DNA of 18,159 nt from a virus. Position 1 is the stretch's first letter. Every line of letters starts with the position of its first letter. Positions 12,001 through 18,000 of the stretch are shown piece by piece. The position numbers are program-made. The stretch lies in UHGV virus genome UHGV-0178165; one strand, written 5' to 3'.

Positions 12001-15000
12001 TCCAGATCCCGCCGTGGTAGATGCACCAATACCAGCAAATATCCGTTGAGAACCAAGAGCGACACCCTGCCGTTTTGGTTTACCGGCTCCGCGACCTCCA
12101 ACATTTGCATCAACCGTAATAGTCCCCATTGGACTATAAGATCCTTCTATAAGGCTGTTAATATCCAGTGTGTTAAAGATATTGGATACACCTGTCTCAA
12201 CATCAAAAATTTTCGGCCAACCCATGTCCGCGTTTTCGTATAGCAGGGTATTACCAAAACCACTGAACTGATATCGCACTCCAAGTTTGGGTGATTCCGT
12301 GAAGTTTGTGATCTGCGTTTTATCAGCTAGCGTGCGCGGGTCTCCGATAGGGTAAATTCTGATAGTGCGGGATGGGCTGTACGGCAGTAGAATATAGCGC
12401 TGCCCTGCTTTTCTGTAAACGTGGATGCCTTCTGGTGCACCAACGTTATTCGGAAAATGAAGACGTGTTACCAATGCTCCTGTTGCCCAGTCATGCACCG
12501 TAACCCATACCGATGCGGGGTTTAGCGTCTGCCAGCCGATGTATACCATTCCATCATTGCTGTCTATGTAAATCCCCTGAAATCCCATGGTCGTATAACC
12601 ATACTGACCTTTAAGATCTGCGGTAATCTCATTGTCTATGATGCTGAATTCTAATTTCCAGTTCAGCGGCCTACGCGTACCACTGACATGTCTGGAAATA
12701 TGAGACAGGTAGCTTTTAACCCCGCCTGCGATAATGTATCTATCTTTGATCTCAGTAACAATTCCAGTTGCAACTGGAGTGCATTTATAGACGCCGCCGT
12801 TTATTCTAATAAAATTGGTTCCTGTTAGATTATCCCCAATGGCAACGTCTTTGCTACTATTCTTAAACGTCCCATTACCTAAGTCAGTAACAAGCAATGC
12901 CCCTTCTACATATTTCAATGACTGATCAGGGTCATACTTCAGCACATTAGGAAAATAGAACTGCTTAGCACCATATGCATCATAAACAGCCATAGAATGG
13001 CCTTGCACAGTTACGAACTTGGCTATTTGCCCGTTATATACCGGGTAACCAGCAGCGTTAATGATGATTGGTTGCGAAACAGGAACGTGAGAACCGTCTT
13101 CATTCTCAACATAAACCTGAATCCGGTTTTCAGGATTTACCGGGTCAGTGTCAATTTTACCGATATAAATTCTGCCATTGGCATTTGCTTTAAACGAGCG
13201 AGCTAAAGTAAATAAGTTACTTGGTTGTGAAACGACAACGTTGTATGATTGATTTGGCATAATAAACATTCCGGAGAAAATAATGAGTAAGAGACGTCAC
13301 GAGGTAGTAACTCGGGAGCGCCTTATGGAGGTTCTAGATTACAATAAAGAAACAGGAATTTTCACCTGGAAAAAGAAATTAAGCGCCAGAGGCTTGTTGG
13401 CTGTTACTCCAAGATTCTCTGCAACCTCCCTTGCTGAGTAGTAATGCTCTTCTATTGCCGGAAGAGGTATTCTAGCTAATGCGCCCTTCCTTCTTAAGAC
13501 TGGCAATTACTCTCTGATAAATCTCAGAGTTAACAGATCGACCATTCTCTTCCGCCACCTTGCGTACCAAATCCAACACTTCTTTAGGCCACCGCAAATT
13601 GAACTGCGGCATCTTGCTCATTCCTTTCATATTCACCTCACAGCACGGCCCACAGTGGACCTATTGAGAATATAGTAGAGTGATTCTATCATGCCAGCGC
13701 ACTAACTTGGAGTGATGGCATGGCAGAGATTGTTCACACACAAACACCTAAAAAGTCTAATTTGCTCTAATTTTGTGTATTAATGGTTGCATAAACAAAT
13801 AAATTAGGAATATAATTTAAGTGAGGTAATTAATTGGAGAAAAAGATATGAAAGTGCAGACTTTAGAGTTCCCATACGGTGAAGTCGAGTTCACCAGAGA
13901 TGAGTATATCGATGCGTCAACACTAACCGTTCAAATGAACCGATGGAGATTTGATAACGGTCTTCAACCAAGAAATCTTGCTCAGATACTGAAAACGGAT
14001 GACTGCAAAGACTTCATGCGTGTTTGTGAAGAGGAGACTGGTATTATTCCGTTAAAAACAACGAGAGGAAGGAATGGGAAAACGTGGCTAAGTCTCCATC
14101 TGGCGGTGTATGTCGCCGAGCAGTACAGCACTTATTTCCACTTTCTCGTCATTGATCGTTTTATCACCCAGAGACAGGTCGAGTTGCGAAACATTGGTGC
14201 GGCAAGTTTTGTGGAGCTTAACGCAGCAGTTAGTCGGATGCTTGAGCGTACAGAAGGTAGGATTGGTCATAGTGGTCATTTCATTCAGGTTGCAAAGGTG
14301 GTTAAGGAATCGATAGATATCCGTGAAGTTACCGGGTTTGATACCTGGGATTCTCAGGATGCAAAAACCAACCAGTTGCGCAGCGAGATACAGAAGTCTC
14401 TTGTTCAGGCTCTTGATATGGAGTTTGTCAACTCGTGGGATGAGCTGAAAGAGACGATACCGCGAGTTGTGCGTAAATGCGCTGAGAAGATTGCAAGAGC
14501 TTAAAAAATGATGAGGGTTACCAATATGAAAAAGGCACTGTTAATTATCCCGTTTCTGCTGGTTGGATGTGCAAAAGTAAGTGACTATCAGGCAAATTGC
14601 GAACAACGCTATCAAAAGCTTAGCGATATGGCCACTTGCCTTGATGCCAGCGTGAAGAGCGACTCACGCATGGCGTCAGCACCAACACCTAAACTGTATG
14701 TCCTTGCTGCGAAGATGCTCGGGCAAGGTGTCGATGAAGGCAAGATAAGTAACGCGCAGGCAAGACTTGAGCTTCAGAATCTTTATGTTCAATTGCAAGC
14801 CCAAGAACAAGCCCAGCAAATAGCGCAAAGCCAGGCATTTCAGCAGGCTTTATTGAATTATCAGGCTTTAAACACAATGCAAGCGATCGAGCAAAAAGCC
14901 AGACAGCCTGTTATAACTCAACCTTACCCAACGCGTGTTGACACCTATACAAACTGCAATTCAGGGTTTGGAAATACAGTCACATGCAACAGTAGCAGTA

Positions 15001-18000
15001 ACATCAGATAACAATCCGTTGTGGAGGATTTATGAACAGAGACATGCTGAATCTTGCGTTCTACATATTTGGCTTTTGCACGTTCCTTGTGCTTGAAAAA
15101 CTATTCTGACAACGCATCAGACTTGGCGCCCTGAGTAAGGGCGTTAATGGCCTTTTGCGCCTGCTGTATGGCTTTCTCAAACGCTGTTGAGCCGCGTGGG
15201 GTGTTTGCCATTCGTAGCATTGCATTTCTGAATGGCTCGCTCTCATAGGCGCGAGCGAGAAGTCCGTAGCTTACTGTTGCGCCAGTTGTCAACTGATTCA
15301 TTGCCGTACCATACCCAATAATGAACGGGATGGTTTGTTGTCCTGTTGGTGTTGTTACTGCCGCTTTTGCAGCCTGCTGCGTGGATTGCAGGTAGTTTTT
15401 CAATCCTTTCAGATAAGCAGCTTCCTGCCCTTTAAATGTGATGCCAGTCTGGTTTTGCAGGATGTTAAGCTGCCGAAGGAACTGATCAGGAGATCCACCA
15501 GATTTCTCCATCGCCTTCCCAATGATGCCATTGCGCATTTGCGCCCTGCCAACACGACCAACTGAGTTATACAGCGCCTTAATTTCAGATTTGTTCTTGC
15601 TGAATAGCATGTTATTGACAACTTCCGGCGTCAGATCGCCTTTCATGAGAACATTCTTCAGCCTGGTGTTCTTTAGTTTCGCCGCTTCGTCAGCGTAGAC
15701 GGCATTGGCCTGCTGGTATTTACGGAGAGTATCGTTGCCAAGATTCTGACCAATGGCACCATTGATATCGCCAGTCATTGCCTTGTAAACGCGCTGAATG
15801 GCGGCATCGGAACGGTTTGGTAACACTGGTCGCTCACCCTTCACGTCCATTCTGAACTGGCTGCGCAGATCGCTTAATTGCTTCAAATCCAGATTGACCG
15901 GACCATCAGGACCAGCATTGCGAACAAGCTCATCACGATATGACTGAAGTTTTGAAATCGTCTCGTTATCAGCGACCTTACCAAGCTTCTGCAGATTAGA
16001 TATTTCTGTATCAATCTGCTGAATTGCTCGCACAGGCTGAATGTTTACTCCAGCCATAGCATTCTGAACCTGCTCCAGTCTATTACCGGCAGCACGACGA
16101 ATTCCTGATGTTTTCGCTTTAAGGCTGTCAATAACAACCGCTGGATCATACTCACCGAATTTATCAGCAAATCTCTGCACCAACTGGCTTCTCGCTTCCT
16201 GTTGCGTTGCTCTCATTCTGCTTGTGCCAGCAAGAGGGATATTTTCTGCTGTCGTTTGCGCCATTTTTCCGACGCGGGAAGTAGGCTGTAACAGGTCTGT
16301 GGTGTGCAGGGGCACCCCTTCACGCTCTGCAAATCTGATAGCTTGCTGCGCTTCTGGTGCAATAGCACCACGAACGCCACGATAAGCAGCGCCTAATCCA
16401 CGCCCGGCAGCGTTAATAGCACCGCCAGCCAGCACGCCAACGCCTAAATCGGTAGCGAGTGCTTCCGCATCATCTTTCGCACTATTTGCAGCAAGTGATC
16501 CAACTGCGTTTTCTGCTAGAAGGCGAGTTGCCCCCTGAGCAATTCGACCAGCAAGTGTTGGTGCCTGTACCGCCACTCTCTCAACGCCAGCAGGAGTGAG
16601 GTAAGGCAATGCTTCAGCAAATACCCTTCCCTCTGTTGTTTGTGGAGTCAGCGCGCCTTGCTGAAGGCCAAAGTCCTGCTCTAATCCCTGCGTTGTTACT
16701 CGTGGCGCTGGTTGATATGTACCATCTCCAATGCCGAGTTTACCGCCAGCCCAAGCCGCCGCGCTTGCTACAGCATCAGTGAGTTCAGCAGGTATGTTCG
16801 CTACGTTGATTCCTGCCTGTAGTAAGCCGCGCCCTGTTTCAGCAAATCCATTACCAAGGTCAGACATTATTCCGTCTTGTTGCTGAACAGGTTTCGGCGC
16901 GACAGAACTTACGGGTTGAGGTGGCTGCTGACTGGCTGCCTGCTGCTCAATCTGAGCAAATGGATTGTTTGGGTCTGACTGCACACCTGATGCAGATACT
17001 TGTTCGGATGACTGTACTTCCAGTTGTGCAAACGGGTTGTTAGGGTCTTGCTGAGGATGCACCTTTGCAGAGGTGGCGCGCTGTTCGACTGTTGAGTCTG
17101 TCACCGGGTCACCCGTCCATTGAGCAAAGCGATCATCAACGTAACCGCGGCCCTCAGGCCCCGGAGTATATTCACCACGCTTTGCCTTCATGACGTTGCC
17201 TGGACCGTCGTGATAAGCCTGAAGAGCGTCACGCCAATTACCAAACTGCTGGTACATCTTTGCCAGATAGCGCGCGCCAGCGTCAGCCTGATATTCGGGG
17301 TTTTGCATTTGCTCATCGGTATAACCCATATCACGCCATGTCCCAGGCATGACCTGAGTCAATCCTACAGCCCCGGCGGAGCTTACTGCGGCAGGGTTGT
17401 AAGAAGACTCCTTGGCACCCAGTGCAGTCATCAACCCTTCTGGCACACCGTAACGTGCGCCAGCCTGCTCTAACAAATCACGGTAATTAGCCATTTACTG
17501 CCCCAAAGATGGAAGATATCCGTAGCGATTAATGAAGTCGATTGACAGCTCGGGGTGCTGCTTCAGGTAATCTATAGAAGCCTGAGGCGCTTCCACTCGC
17601 TTGATACCGTTTTGCTGAACGTACTTACCAACCGCCTCATTACGCTTCTGGTTGAGCGTGTTCAGGATGACGCCAGCGTTGCGACGAAAGGACTCCTCGC
17701 TCTGCGAGTTCTGCAGCGAACCAACAGCCTGGTCGAGCTTTTTGCCCTCGGCATCAGAAAGTGCGCCCATGCCTCGCATGGCCTGAACCGCTGTCAGGAA
17801 TGCTTGTGATTTAAAGGTATCAAGTCGTGCCTGAGTGTCTGCGGCCTGTGAGCCTGGAACGTTGGGGATTGCTCCACGTAAGCCTGTAATGCTCTTAAGT
17901 GCAGGAGAATTAACGATATCGTTCAGAGTGGACATGCTGGTTGTGATGGTGTTTATGCCGTCTTTGTAGCCATCATTTAGCTCTTGCTGCTTCTGCTGCA

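What the first reader, a model, noticed from the sequence alone, without database searches (positions are those of the whole stretch)
13472..15109. KilA-N protein / outer-membrane-type lipoprotein / small membrane peptide cassette in the P22 sieA-mnt position, with its own strong promoter
Between the last ejection gene and the tailspike, three plus-strand genes (KilA-N 13848-14504, lipoprotein 14526-15011, 25-aa hydrophobic peptide 15032-15109) are transcribed opposite to the late operon from a near-consensus sigma70 promoter (13787-13816). This is the classic moron/superinfection-exclusion locus of P22-like phages, and here the arc neighbours mnt and ant are absent. A constitutively expressed lipoprotein with a small membrane partner is a plausible entry-blocking exclusion or host-modifying module. 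The KilA-N protein, divergent from arc and next to its operator, may be its regulator or an antirepressor-type effector. I cannot assign a known function to this combination.
Basis: partly seen in the sequence, partly recalled or inferred. Interest (0 to 1): 0.8.

Follow-up and report, generated by a model that had tools for sequence, protein, structure and literature searches.

The report
Three unrelated genes share one slot
The supposed three-gene cassette in this P22-like phage is three separately inherited add-on genes (a DNA-binding protein taken from unrelated lytic Salmonella phages, a lipoprotein that sits where the known exclusion protein SieA sits in other phages, and a never-annotated 25-residue membrane peptide), and none of them has a known function.

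Summary
All three plus-strand ORFs are real, intact and conserved. They lie between the tailspike gene and the last ejection gene, opposite to the late operon. mnt and ant are absent.

They are not one cassette.
1. 13718-14482, which carries most of the KilA-N-like gene (13848-14504) and its promoter, is 87% identical in DNA to a syntenic gene of over 180 virulent Jersey-type siphophages. It was joined inside the first codons of mnt and replaces mnt. The protein is a weak KilA-N match. Its distant relatives are the DNA-binding part of GIY-YIG/T5orf172 nuclease fusions. It is not an amidase or an Ant-type antirepressor.
2. The lipoprotein (14526-15011; lipobox LVGC; pN/pS 0.10) belongs to an uncharacterised family. 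This family always lies next to the gp16 homologue in P22-like phages across Enterobacterales. It never co-occurs with SieA (0 of 71 loci). A sister phage carries the identical KilA-N gene followed by SieA instead.
3. The 25-residue ORF (15032-15109) follows the Sf6-type gp16 3' end (intact in 125 of 125 loci, including Sf6), with or without the lipoprotein.

The promoter has a perfect -10 but a weak -35, and the P22 Pmnt homologue lies upstream. Exclusion is plausible for the lipoprotein but untested. Moderate interest.

The parts
10573..13269 (-). Tailspike gene; left border of the slot
   Evidence: Pfam Head_binding 2.4e-62 and Phage_tail_C_2 1.9e-59.
13283..13441 (+). 52-aa stub of an HNH endonuclease gene, in the place of ant
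   Evidence: phrog_99 HNH endonuclease, E 1.1e-05. Sister contigs L137, L139 and L140 carry a full 167-aa AP2+HNH_3 gene here. The window and L138 are about 690 bp shorter.
13472..13636 (-). arc (Arc repressor homologue)
   Evidence: Pfam Arc 3.3e-28.
13646..13668 (.). Degenerate Mnt operator
   Evidence: Aligned to the annotated P22 mnt operator. There are 3-4 changes in the left half and centre, whereas L141 and E. coli GN25 keep it.
13664..13692 (+). Pmnt homologue (TTGAGA-17-TATCAT); reads toward the KilA-N-like gene
   Evidence: Promoter scan gives 10 of 12 matches. It is co-linear with the annotated P22 mnt promoter.
13669..13697 (-). Pant homologue with a weakened -35 (CTGGCA instead of TTGACA)
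   Evidence: Promoter scan gives 9 of 12 matches. Aligned to the annotated P22 arc/ant promoter.
13672..13692 (.). Arc operator, ATAGTAGAGTGATTCTATCAT
   Evidence: 20 of 21 bases identical to the annotated P22 O-arc.
13712..13735 (+). Left recombination joint: the mnt start codon and about 4 codons, fused to Jersey-phage intergenic DNA through a short microhomology (GCATGGC.A.AGAT)
   Evidence: Four-way alignments. The same joint is present in L141.
13718..14482 (+). Module derived from Jersey-type (Guernseyvirinae) virulent siphophages: about 130 bp of upstream region plus nearly the whole KilA-N-like gene
   Evidence: 85-87% nucleotide identity to over 180 Jersey-type phage genomes. In those phages it is a syntenic gene between the portal and head-morphogenesis genes.
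13787..13816 (+). Imported sigma-70-type promoter, TTGCAT-18-TATAAT
   Evidence: Sequence read. Conserved with phi135, where a promoter is annotated. It falls below the -35 threshold of the scan.
13848..14504 (+). KilA-N-like DNA-binding protein, 218 aa: variable N-terminal KilA-N/APSES-like domain and a nearly invariant helical C-terminal domain
14526..15011 (+). Outer-membrane-type lipoprotein, 161 aa (phrog_6067), in the SieA position
   Evidence: Lipobox LVGC at 12-15. 91 homologues in Enterobacterales, none with a Pfam domain. Always lies between the tailspike and gp16 homologues. pN/pS 0.10. Model: four-helix bundle at 18-96, Gln-rich segment, C-terminal hairpin.
15032..15109 (+). Conserved, unannotated 25-aa hydrophobic peptide gene; overlaps the 3' end of the convergent ejection gene by 9 nt
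   Evidence: Intact in 125 of 125 loci. pN/pS 0.30. GGAGGA Shine-Dalgarno sequence upstream. Present in Sf6 and IME10. Absent from a 15-billion-protein collection.
15101..17494 (-). Last ejection protein: gp16 homologue with an N-terminal SLT lytic transglycosylase domain; right border of the slot
   Evidence: Pfam SLT 2.9e-25. Precomputed SLT + Phage_P22_gp16 on the gene at the same position in sister contigs.

Best explanation
The region is the variable accessory slot (immI/sieA region) of a P22-like podophage. Three independent modules have ended up head to tail in it.

(1) KilA-N-like gene. A gene for a sequence-specific DNA-binding protein, with its own promoter, was captured from Jersey-type virulent siphophages. 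The protein has an N-terminal KilA-N/APSES-like domain and a conserved helical C-terminal domain. Capture was by microhomology recombination in the first codons of mnt, so the gene now replaces mnt. Its most likely role is a nuclease-free transcriptional or DNA-binding regulator. It is not an amidase and not an Ant-type antirepressor.

(2) Lipoprotein. A periplasm-facing, outer-membrane-sorted lipoprotein from a family that is the positional alternative to the inner-membrane exclusion protein SieA in P22-like phages. Its most likely role is an envelope-level block to superinfecting phage (receptor masking, or interference with the periplasmic ejection-protein conduit).

(3) 25-residue peptide. 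A single-helix membrane peptide that belongs genetically to the Sf6-type gp16 end and the mnt operon, not to the lipoprotein.

In this genome all three are probably co-transcribed rightward from the Pmnt remnant and the imported promoter, because no terminator separates them.

Shown: the gene content, the mosaic joints, the independent assortment, purifying selection, and the mutual exclusivity with SieA. Inferred: DNA binding, co-transcription, outer-membrane location, and any exclusion activity.
For: Mosaic origin:
- 13718-14482 matches Jersey-type phages at 85-87%.
- 14503-15109 matches E. coli P22-like prophages at about 90%.
- The joints are mapped.
- The Jersey terminator was not carried over. 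No terminator-like site was found in 13200-15300, and no stable hairpin.

Independent assortment:
- Slot architectures in 127 loci.
- Sf6 and IME10 have the small ORF only.
- Lipoprotein-only loci occur in other genera.
- L141 has KilA-N plus SieA, and L142 has KilA-N plus lipoprotein without the small ORF.

KilA-N-like protein:
- Homologues pass the Pfam KilA-N cut-off, and several are fused to GIY-YIG, MUG113 or T5orf172 domains.
- There is precedent for nuclease-free derivatives of such proteins acting as repressors: CapR (PMC8096241).

Lipoprotein:
- Conserved lipobox.
- pN/pS 0.10.
- Always convergent with the gp16 homologue.
- 0 of 53 lipoprotein loci have SieA, and 0 of 18 SieA loci have the lipoprotein.
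- Only 22 of 66 sequenced P22-like phages carry sieA (PMC10883804).
Against: - Mutual exclusivity with SieA may only reflect two alternative fillings of one recombination hot spot.
- Within the 161-codon allele class the lipoprotein shows no sign of diversifying selection, which an arms-race protein might show.
- The contig has no integrase and no c2/cI gene where they are expected. A 'prophage-expressed' role may therefore not apply to this lineage.
- The direct KilA-N Pfam score is below threshold.
- Operator-like palindromes upstream of the Jersey-phage gene do not co-vary with the type of its N-terminal domain.
- Promoter activity is unmeasured.
Confidence: 0.6

Rival explanations
1. One functional exclusion cassette: the KilA-N protein regulates a constitutively expressed lipoprotein, which works with the 25-aa peptide as its membrane partner.
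For: The three genes are adjacent and co-oriented, separated by 21 and 20 nt, with no terminator between them. The exact trio is found on several metagenome contigs.
Against: Each gene occurs without the others:
- The small ORF occurs without the lipoprotein in about 90 of 127 loci, including Sf6.
- The lipoprotein occurs without the small ORF in four other genera and in L142.
- The KilA-N gene is core to Jersey-type phages, which have neither partner.
- The KilA-N gene precedes sieA in L141.
Confidence: 0.07
2. The KilA-N-like protein is a functional replacement for Mnt: a new repressor that keeps Pant (arc-ant) silent.
For: It sits exactly where mnt was and is driven from Pmnt. Phage L141 keeps arc and an antirepressor (P22_AR_N) but has no mnt, only this gene. 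This would be hard to tolerate without some substitute control of ant.
Against: Its natural home is virulent phages with no immI region. No binding site for it has been identified near Pant. In the window ant is gone and the Pant -35 and O-mnt are decaying, so nothing is left to regulate.
Confidence: 0.12
3. The lipoprotein is a host-directed lysogenic-conversion factor rather than a phage-exclusion protein. Examples would be serum resistance or envelope-stress protection, in the manner of Bor/Iss or TraT.
For: It is a lipoprotein with predicted outer-membrane sorting. It is strongly conserved across host genera, which would fit a conserved host target. It shows no diversifying selection.
Against: There is no similarity to Bor, TraT or any named family. 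It is strictly linked to the ejection-gene end of P22-like phages and alternates with SieA. It is also carried by sewage-isolated, plaque-forming phages (VSe13, Brookers).
Confidence: 0.15
4. The slot is decaying junk in a lineage that is abandoning lysogeny, and the three ORFs have no current function.
For: - mnt and ant are lost.
- The HNH gene is truncated.
- The Pant -35 and O-mnt are mutated.
- No int or c2 gene is detected.
Against: All three ORFs are intact. The lipoprotein (pN/pS 0.10) and the small ORF (0.30) are under purifying selection. The KilA-N protein is identical on 21 contigs from several studies.
Confidence: 0.06

Closest known systems
P22 immI / sieA region (16 - sieA - orf59a - mnt - arc - ant - 9)
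   Same: Same position between the gp16 homologue and the tailspike. It has an arc homologue, an Arc operator matching in 20 of 21 bases, and co-linear Pmnt and Pant homologues. The accessory genes are transcribed opposite to the late operon.
   Different: mnt, orf59a, sieA, ant and the sar RNA are all absent. In their places are a Jersey-phage gene, a lipoprotein, a 25-aa ORF and an HNH stub.
SieA superinfection-exclusion protein (Leavitt et al. 2024, PMC10883804)
   Same: The lipoprotein occupies the same position immediately convergent with gene 16. It is found in the same genera, never together with SieA, and in a sister phage it is swapped for SieA type B behind the identical upstream gene.
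   Different: SieA is a polytopic inner-membrane protein (Pfam SIEA). The lipoprotein has a signal peptide and lipobox, no transmembrane helix after cleavage, and no sequence similarity to SieA. Its function is untested.
Phage exclusion lipoproteins Cor (phi80/N15/HK022), Llp (T5) and Ltp (TP-J34)
   Same: They are small phage-encoded lipoproteins that block entry of related phages at the envelope, and are expressed independently of the late genes.
KilA-N / APSES DNA-binding domain proteins and GIY-YIG/T5orf172 homing-endonuclease-like fusions, including the nuclease-free derivative CapR of the Vibrio PLE satellite (PMC8096241)
   Same: Distant full-length homologues carry bona fide KilA-N domains, and several have N-terminal GIY-YIG, MUG113 or T5orf172 domains. 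The gene is free-standing, with its own promoter and terminator, inside a structural gene cluster of Jersey-type phages. Like CapR, it has no nuclease domain.
   Different: It is not homologous to CapR. It has no nuclease domain, so it is not a homing endonuclease. It is syntenic in essentially all Jersey-type phages rather than sporadic. Neither a DNA target nor a regulatory effect is known.
Small membrane peptides and type I toxins (Ibs, Ldr, TisB, ShoB class)
   Same: It is a 25-residue peptide with a single hydrophobic helix, unannotated, and convergent with and partly antisense to another transcript.
   Different: There is no sequence match and no Rfam antitoxin or RNA family nearby. In most loci it is directly downstream of mnt with a strong Shine-Dalgarno sequence, which resembles an operon member more than a toxin locus.

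Membership tests
KilA-N domain (Pfam PF04383) | Sequence match above Pfam's gathering score | tested here: not met
   16.8 bits against a cut-off of 23.8, E 0.0064, residues 16-104.
KilA-N domain (Pfam PF04383) | Homology, through a family profile, to proteins that do pass the threshold | tested here: met
   The profile of 24 family members finds 141 representatives. P0134 (41.6 bits), P0133 (33.8) and P0131 (31.1) pass the KilA-N cut-off over the aligned N-terminal region.
KilA-N domain (Pfam PF04383) | KilA-N/APSES fold | tested here: inconclusive
Phage antirepressors (Bro-N, ANT/KilA-C, AntA, P22_AR_N/C) | Presence of one of these domains | tested here: not met
   No such Pfam hit at E <= 0.1. 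P22 Ant does not match the window's slot by tblastn (one search used the GN25 Ant as query).
Amidase / endolysin (the label carried by phrog_6095 and many GenBank records) | A catalytic amidase domain or fold | tested here: not met
   There is no amidase Pfam or NCBIfam hit. The model is mostly helical. The PDB profile search gives only Autolysin E at E 0.63. The label appears to be inherited annotation.
GIY-YIG / T5orf172 homing endonucleases | Nuclease domain | tested here: not met
   The 218-aa protein aligns only to the non-nuclease part of the fused homologues: P0131 residues 110-303, P0140 131-330, P0166 172-375.
Bacterial lipoproteins (signal peptidase II substrates) | N-terminal signal peptide with a lipobox [LVI][ASTVI][GAS]C | tested here: met
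   The N-terminus is MKKALLIIPFLLVGC, with LVGC at 12-15. Cys15 is invariant and Gly14 nearly invariant in 45 homologues. Residue +2 is Ala, which implies outer-membrane sorting by the Asp+2 rule (established knowledge).
Bacterial lipoproteins (signal peptidase II substrates) | Actual lipidation and membrane location | not testable with these tools
   This needs globomycin sensitivity, palmitate labelling or cell fractionation.
SieA family (Pfam PF26849) | Sequence homology and a polytopic inner-membrane topology | tested here: not met
   There is no Pfam hit. tblastn with SieA types A and B finds nothing in 53 lipoprotein loci.
SieA family (Pfam PF26849) | Genomic position convergent with gene 16, and exclusion of P22-like phages | tested here: inconclusive
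   The position is met. Exclusion activity was not tested.
Cor / Llp exclusion lipoproteins | Sequence similarity beyond the signal peptide | tested here: not met
   phrog_1119 (Cor) gives E 0.047 over residues 1-31 only, and no other named PHROG matches.
Known anti-phage defence systems (PADLOC-DB) | Match to any defence-protein model | tested here: not met
   There were no hits for any of the proteins at E <= 0.1.
P22 immI control region | arc gene, Arc operator, and divergent Pant/Pmnt promoters | tested here: met
   Pfam Arc 3e-28. O-arc matches in 20 of 21 bases, and both promoters are co-linear with the P22 annotation.
P22 immI control region | mnt, ant and sar present | tested here: not met
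   mnt is reduced to about 4 codons. There is no ant. There is no sar or other Rfam match.

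The most novel reading that the evidence does not exclude
The P22-like phage has taken the conserved early DNA-binding protein of its competitors, the Jersey-type virulent phages, together with that protein's own promoter region. It uses the protein to interfere with co-infecting Jersey phages. 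One route would be mistimed binding at the divergent promoter region in front of their head-morphogenesis operon, in the way the PLE satellite's nuclease-free CapR represses the capsid operon of ICP1. Together with the SieA-position lipoprotein and the gp16-linked peptide, the slot would then be a three-layer anti-competitor locus aimed at two different phage families.
Probability: 0.07. Interest if true: 0.8.

Novelty: new variant of a known kind. Interest (0 to 1): 0.45.

Why it matters
The 2024 SieA study reports that only 22 of 66 sequenced P22-like phages carry sieA (PMC10883804). It does not mention a lipoprotein gene in that position. This analysis identifies a widespread, strongly conserved lipoprotein family that takes exactly that position and never co-occurs with SieA. 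That gives a concrete candidate that the same plating and potassium-efflux assays could test.

It also turns up a conserved 25-codon gene that no annotation or gene caller has recorded. The gene is present in the model phage Sf6, so it is directly testable.

The KilA-N-like gene documents a precise virulent-to-temperate gene capture, with a mapped microhomology joint that deleted mnt. It also shows that the 'amidase' label on hundreds of Jersey-phage records is unsupported.

None of this establishes a new mechanism yet. The value lies in well-defined leads.

Tried and rejected
1. Lipoprotein as a Spackle/Ivy-like inhibitor of the neighbouring SLT ejection protein. Rejected. The family also sits next to gp16 homologues with no recorded SLT hit, in Yersinia, Serratia, Morganella and Proteus.

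2. Small ORF as an obligate partner of the lipoprotein. Rejected on distribution.

3. Small-ORF conservation caused by a gene on the opposite strand. The only other frame with a low pN/pS ratio (reverse frame 1, 0.36) has stop codons in 55 of 56 sequences.

4. Operator palindromes over the promoter co-varying with the type of the N-terminal domain of the Jersey protein. Not supported. Phages with the same N-terminal type carry different palindromes, and the dyad in the window type is weak.

6. Defence and RNA databases. PADLOC, NCBIfam and Rfam give no hits.

7. Terminators. No terminator or stable RNA structure was found around the gene junctions.

8. Literature. Searches for the protein accession, the PHROG numbers and Jerseyvirus+KilA-N found nothing.

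9. Exact right-junction sequence. It was not found in GTDB representative genomes or in IMG/VR. The arrangement was then found by exact-protein look-up in metagenome contigs.

10. Promoters for the lipoprotein where it stands alone (Yersinia, Morganella). Consensus scans were no better than shuffled controls.

Full report
**What is there.** The window is a metagenome contig (ERZ1034763 NODE_473) of a P22-like podophage related to Sf6, Sf101 and IME10. The gene order around the finding is as follows:
- tailspike, 10573-13269 (-);
- a 52-aa HNH-endonuclease stub, 13283-13441 (+);
- arc, 13472-13636 (-), Pfam Arc 3e-28;
- a 218-aa ORF, 13848-14504 (+);
- a 161-aa ORF, 14526-15011 (+);
- a 25-aa ORF, 15032-15109 (+);
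- an 797-aa ejection protein with an N-terminal SLT domain, 15101-17494 (-). The gene at the same position in sister contigs is recorded as SLT plus Phage_P22_gp16.

Compared with annotated P22, this is the 16 - sieA - orf59a - mnt - arc - ant - 9 region.

**The immI control region is a remnant.** I aligned the window to P22's annotated operators and promoters.
- The Arc operator is at 13672-13692 and matches in 20 of 21 bases.
- The Pmnt homologue is at 13664-13692. It reads TTGAGA-17-TATCAT and is the best promoter-like site in the scan, with 10 of 12 matches.
- The Pant homologue is at 13669-13697. Its -35 has changed from TTGACA to CTGGCA.
- The Mnt operator carries 3-4 changes.
- mnt survives only as its start codon and about four codons.
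- ant is absent. Sister contigs carry a full 167-aa AP2+HNH endonuclease gene in its place. The window has a deletion of about 690 bp that leaves the stub.

**Module 1: the KilA-N-like gene is an import from virulent siphophages.** Window 13718-14482 is 85-87% identical in DNA to over 180 Jersey-type (Guernseyvirinae) Salmonella phages. In those phages the gene stands alone on the opposite strand between the portal and head-morphogenesis genes. In the phi135 record it has an annotated promoter and terminator of its own. The arrangement is syntenic in 241 or more phage records.

Close homologues (68-94% identity) come almost only from phage-sized contigs of 40-49 kb. The C-terminal half (residues 84-212) is nearly invariant and the N-terminal 83 residues vary.

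The left joint lies in a short microhomology (GCATGGC.A.AGAT) between the start of mnt and the Jersey intergenic DNA. The right joint lies at the last few codons. The Jersey terminator was not carried over.

I infer that the transfer went from Jersey-type phages to the P22-like phage. The gene is diverse and syntenic in Jersey-type phages. In P22-like genomes a single protein sequence is found, on 21 metagenome contigs.

**What the KilA-N-like protein is.**
- The direct Pfam KilA-N match is below threshold (16.8 against 23.8 bits).
- A family profile searched against 1.8 billion representative proteins finds 141 relatives.
- Several full-length relatives pass the KilA-N cut-off. Others carry an N-terminal GIY-YIG, LEM-3, MUG113 or T5orf172 nuclease domain in front of the homologous region.
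- The protein is therefore the DNA-binding part of a homing-endonuclease-like architecture, without the nuclease.
- Nothing supports the 'amidase' label of phrog_6095 and many GenBank records.
- There is no Bro-N, ANT, AntA or P22_AR domain, so homology gives no support for an antirepressor.
- A nuclease-free relative of T5orf172 endonucleases acting as a capsid-operon repressor (CapR of the Vibrio PLE satellite) is a published precedent for this kind of protein (PMC8096241).

**The promoter.** 13787-13816 reads TTGCAT-18 nt-TATAAT. The -10 is perfect and the -35 matches 3 of 6, so it is below the scan's threshold. It is conserved in the phi135 subgroup, and other subgroups have a promoter-like element at the same distance from the start codon. 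It is plausible but not 'near-consensus'. Pmnt upstream also reads into the gene. No terminator-like site or stable hairpin lies between the three genes or after them, so co-transcription is likely but unmeasured.

**Module 2: the lipoprotein.**
- Signal. The N-terminus is MKKALLIIPFLLVGC with Ala at +2, and the cysteine is invariant in 45 homologues.
- Family. It belongs to phrog_6067, of unknown function. No Pfam, NCBIfam, PADLOC or PDB relative was found.
- Distribution. There are 91 homologues (48-94% identity) in Escherichia, Citrobacter, Serratia, Cronobacter, Klebsiella aerogenes, Yersinia, Pectobacterium, Pantoea, Morganella, Providencia and Proteus.
- Context. In every context examined the gene lies between the tailspike and the gp16 homologue of a P22-like phage or prophage and is convergent with gene 16. 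The contexts include the plaque-forming phages Gally, 720R6, VSe13 and Brookers. The neighbouring gp16 may be SLT-type, P22-type or neither. This rejects my first idea that the lipoprotein inhibits the SLT domain.
- Structure. The model shows a confident four-helix bundle (residues 18-96, pLDDT 84-91), a low-confidence Gln-rich helix and a C-terminal hairpin flanked by two cysteines. Fold searches are generic.
- Selection. Purifying selection is strong: pN/pS is 0.10 overall, 0.09 in the bundle and 0.04 in the tail, across 25 distinct alleles.

**The link to SieA.**
- Contig L141 carries the identical KilA-N gene with the identical left joint. The next gene there is SieA type B (Pfam SIEA; 27% identical to P22 SieA), followed by a P22-type gene 16.
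- Across the loci I hold, 0 of 53 lipoprotein loci contain SieA type A or B, and 0 of 18 SieA loci contain the lipoprotein.
- The slot can hold several genes at once.
- Only 22 of 66 sequenced P22-like phages have sieA (PMC10883804).
- The lipoprotein is therefore the positional alternative to SieA. That it also excludes phage is an inference.

**Module 3: the 25-aa ORF.** I anchored a search on the 3' end of the ejection gene.
- The ORF is intact, at a fixed length of 78 nt, in 125 of 125 loci with sequence available (37 peptide variants). There are 56 distinct DNA versions once the window is included.
- pN/pS is 0.30 in its frame, against 0.78 and 1.91 in the other forward frames. The one antisense frame with a similar ratio is closed by stops in 55 of 56 sequences.
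- Homology between otherwise unrelated upstream sequences begins just before its ATG.
- Most loci have a GGAGGA Shine-Dalgarno sequence 6 nt upstream.
- Of 127 loci, 55 are tailspike | mnt | small ORF, 22 are tailspike | small ORF (the Sf6 type), and about 35 also have the lipoprotein. Only the window has the KilA-N gene.
- The ORF is present but not annotated in Sf6. Its four commonest forms are absent from a 15-billion-protein collection.
- The lipoprotein occurs without it in Serratia, Yersinia, Morganella and Proteus, and in contig L142, which has a different gene-16 end.
- The peptide therefore belongs with the Sf6-type gene-16 end and the mnt operon, not with the lipoprotein. Its function is unknown. 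A gp16-type-specific inner-membrane exclusion factor is one guess.

**Lifestyle caveat.** The PL-operon genes end 62 nt from the 3' end of the tailspike gene, with no integrase between them. Between cro (3777-3992) and N (4774-5118) there is no ORF longer than 73 aa. Instead there is a 22-bp tandem repeat of about five copies at 4398-4507. Sister contigs are phage-sized with high coverage. This lineage may not lysogenise. If so, 'constitutive expression from a prophage' is the wrong frame here, although related lipoprotein loci are in ordinary prophages.

**Verdict.** The finding is a new filling of a known accessory slot. It gives three testable leads and no established mechanism.

Noticed in passing
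window 3993-4773 (repeat at 4398-4507): There is no cI/c2 repressor gene between cro (3777-3992, -) and N (4774-5118, +). All ORFs there are 73 aa or shorter. Instead there is a 22-bp tandem repeat of about five copies (CCCTRGTGAATCTCCTGCACCA), which looks iteron-like.
   Followed up: partly
window 10163-10573: The last PL-operon ORF (115 aa) ends 62 nt from the 3' end of the tailspike gene. There is no integrase, xis or gtr module where P22 has them. The lineage may be non-lysogenic.
   Followed up: partly
window 13283-13441; L137:4746-5249: Sister contigs carry a full 167-aa AP2+HNH_3 endonuclease gene in the place of ant. The window and L138 have a deletion of about 690 bp that leaves a 52-aa stub. 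A free-standing nuclease gene therefore sits at a mosaic boundary.
   Followed up: partly
L012 (Sf6, NC_005344) 2502-2579: The conserved 25-codon ORF lies in the 164-nt gap between Sf6 genes 13 and 14 and is not annotated. Its four commonest forms are absent from a 15-billion-protein collection.
   Followed up: yes
window 13646-13697: The Pant -35 has changed from TTGACA to CTGGCA, and the Mnt operator carries 3-4 changes. Sister phage L141 and E. coli GN25 keep the P22 versions. This is consistent with decay after the loss of mnt and ant.
   Followed up: yes
L141 (ERZ1034905 NODE_344) 3100-5703: This P22-like phage has arc and an antirepressor (P22_AR_N) but no mnt. The KilA-N-like gene sits in mnt's place, followed by SieA type B. 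This raises the question of what keeps ant silent.
   Followed up: partly
L001 4133-4783 and other Jersey-type phage records: The Jersey-phage gene is widely labelled 'amidase' (phrog_6095, category lysis). No amidase domain or fold is detectable, so the label looks like propagated misannotation.
   Followed up: partly
L134:1091-1215; L135 and L136 upstream regions: Perfect palindromes of 11-14 nt per arm overlap the promoter of the Jersey-phage gene. SE124_1FR also has a 61-nt tandem duplication there. The palindromes differ between phages that share the same N-terminal domain type.
   Followed up: partly
L001 from about 4378 onward (codon ~82 of the gene): In many Jersey-type and Kagunavirus-like phages, nucleotide similarity starts in the middle of the gene, at the boundary between the variable N-terminal domain and the nearly invariant C-terminal domain. 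This marks a mosaic joint inside the gene.
   Followed up: no
L002:3512-3931 (-); L006:2947-3366 (-): In several E. coli prophages and in phage Gally, a 139-aa ORF of unknown function lies on the late-operon strand between mnt/arc and the lipoprotein gene.
   Followed up: no
L142:7167-9794: This contig has the same KilA-N and lipoprotein genes but a longer (875-aa) SLT-gp16 protein with a different 3' end, which abuts the lipoprotein stop codon. There is no small ORF.
   Followed up: no
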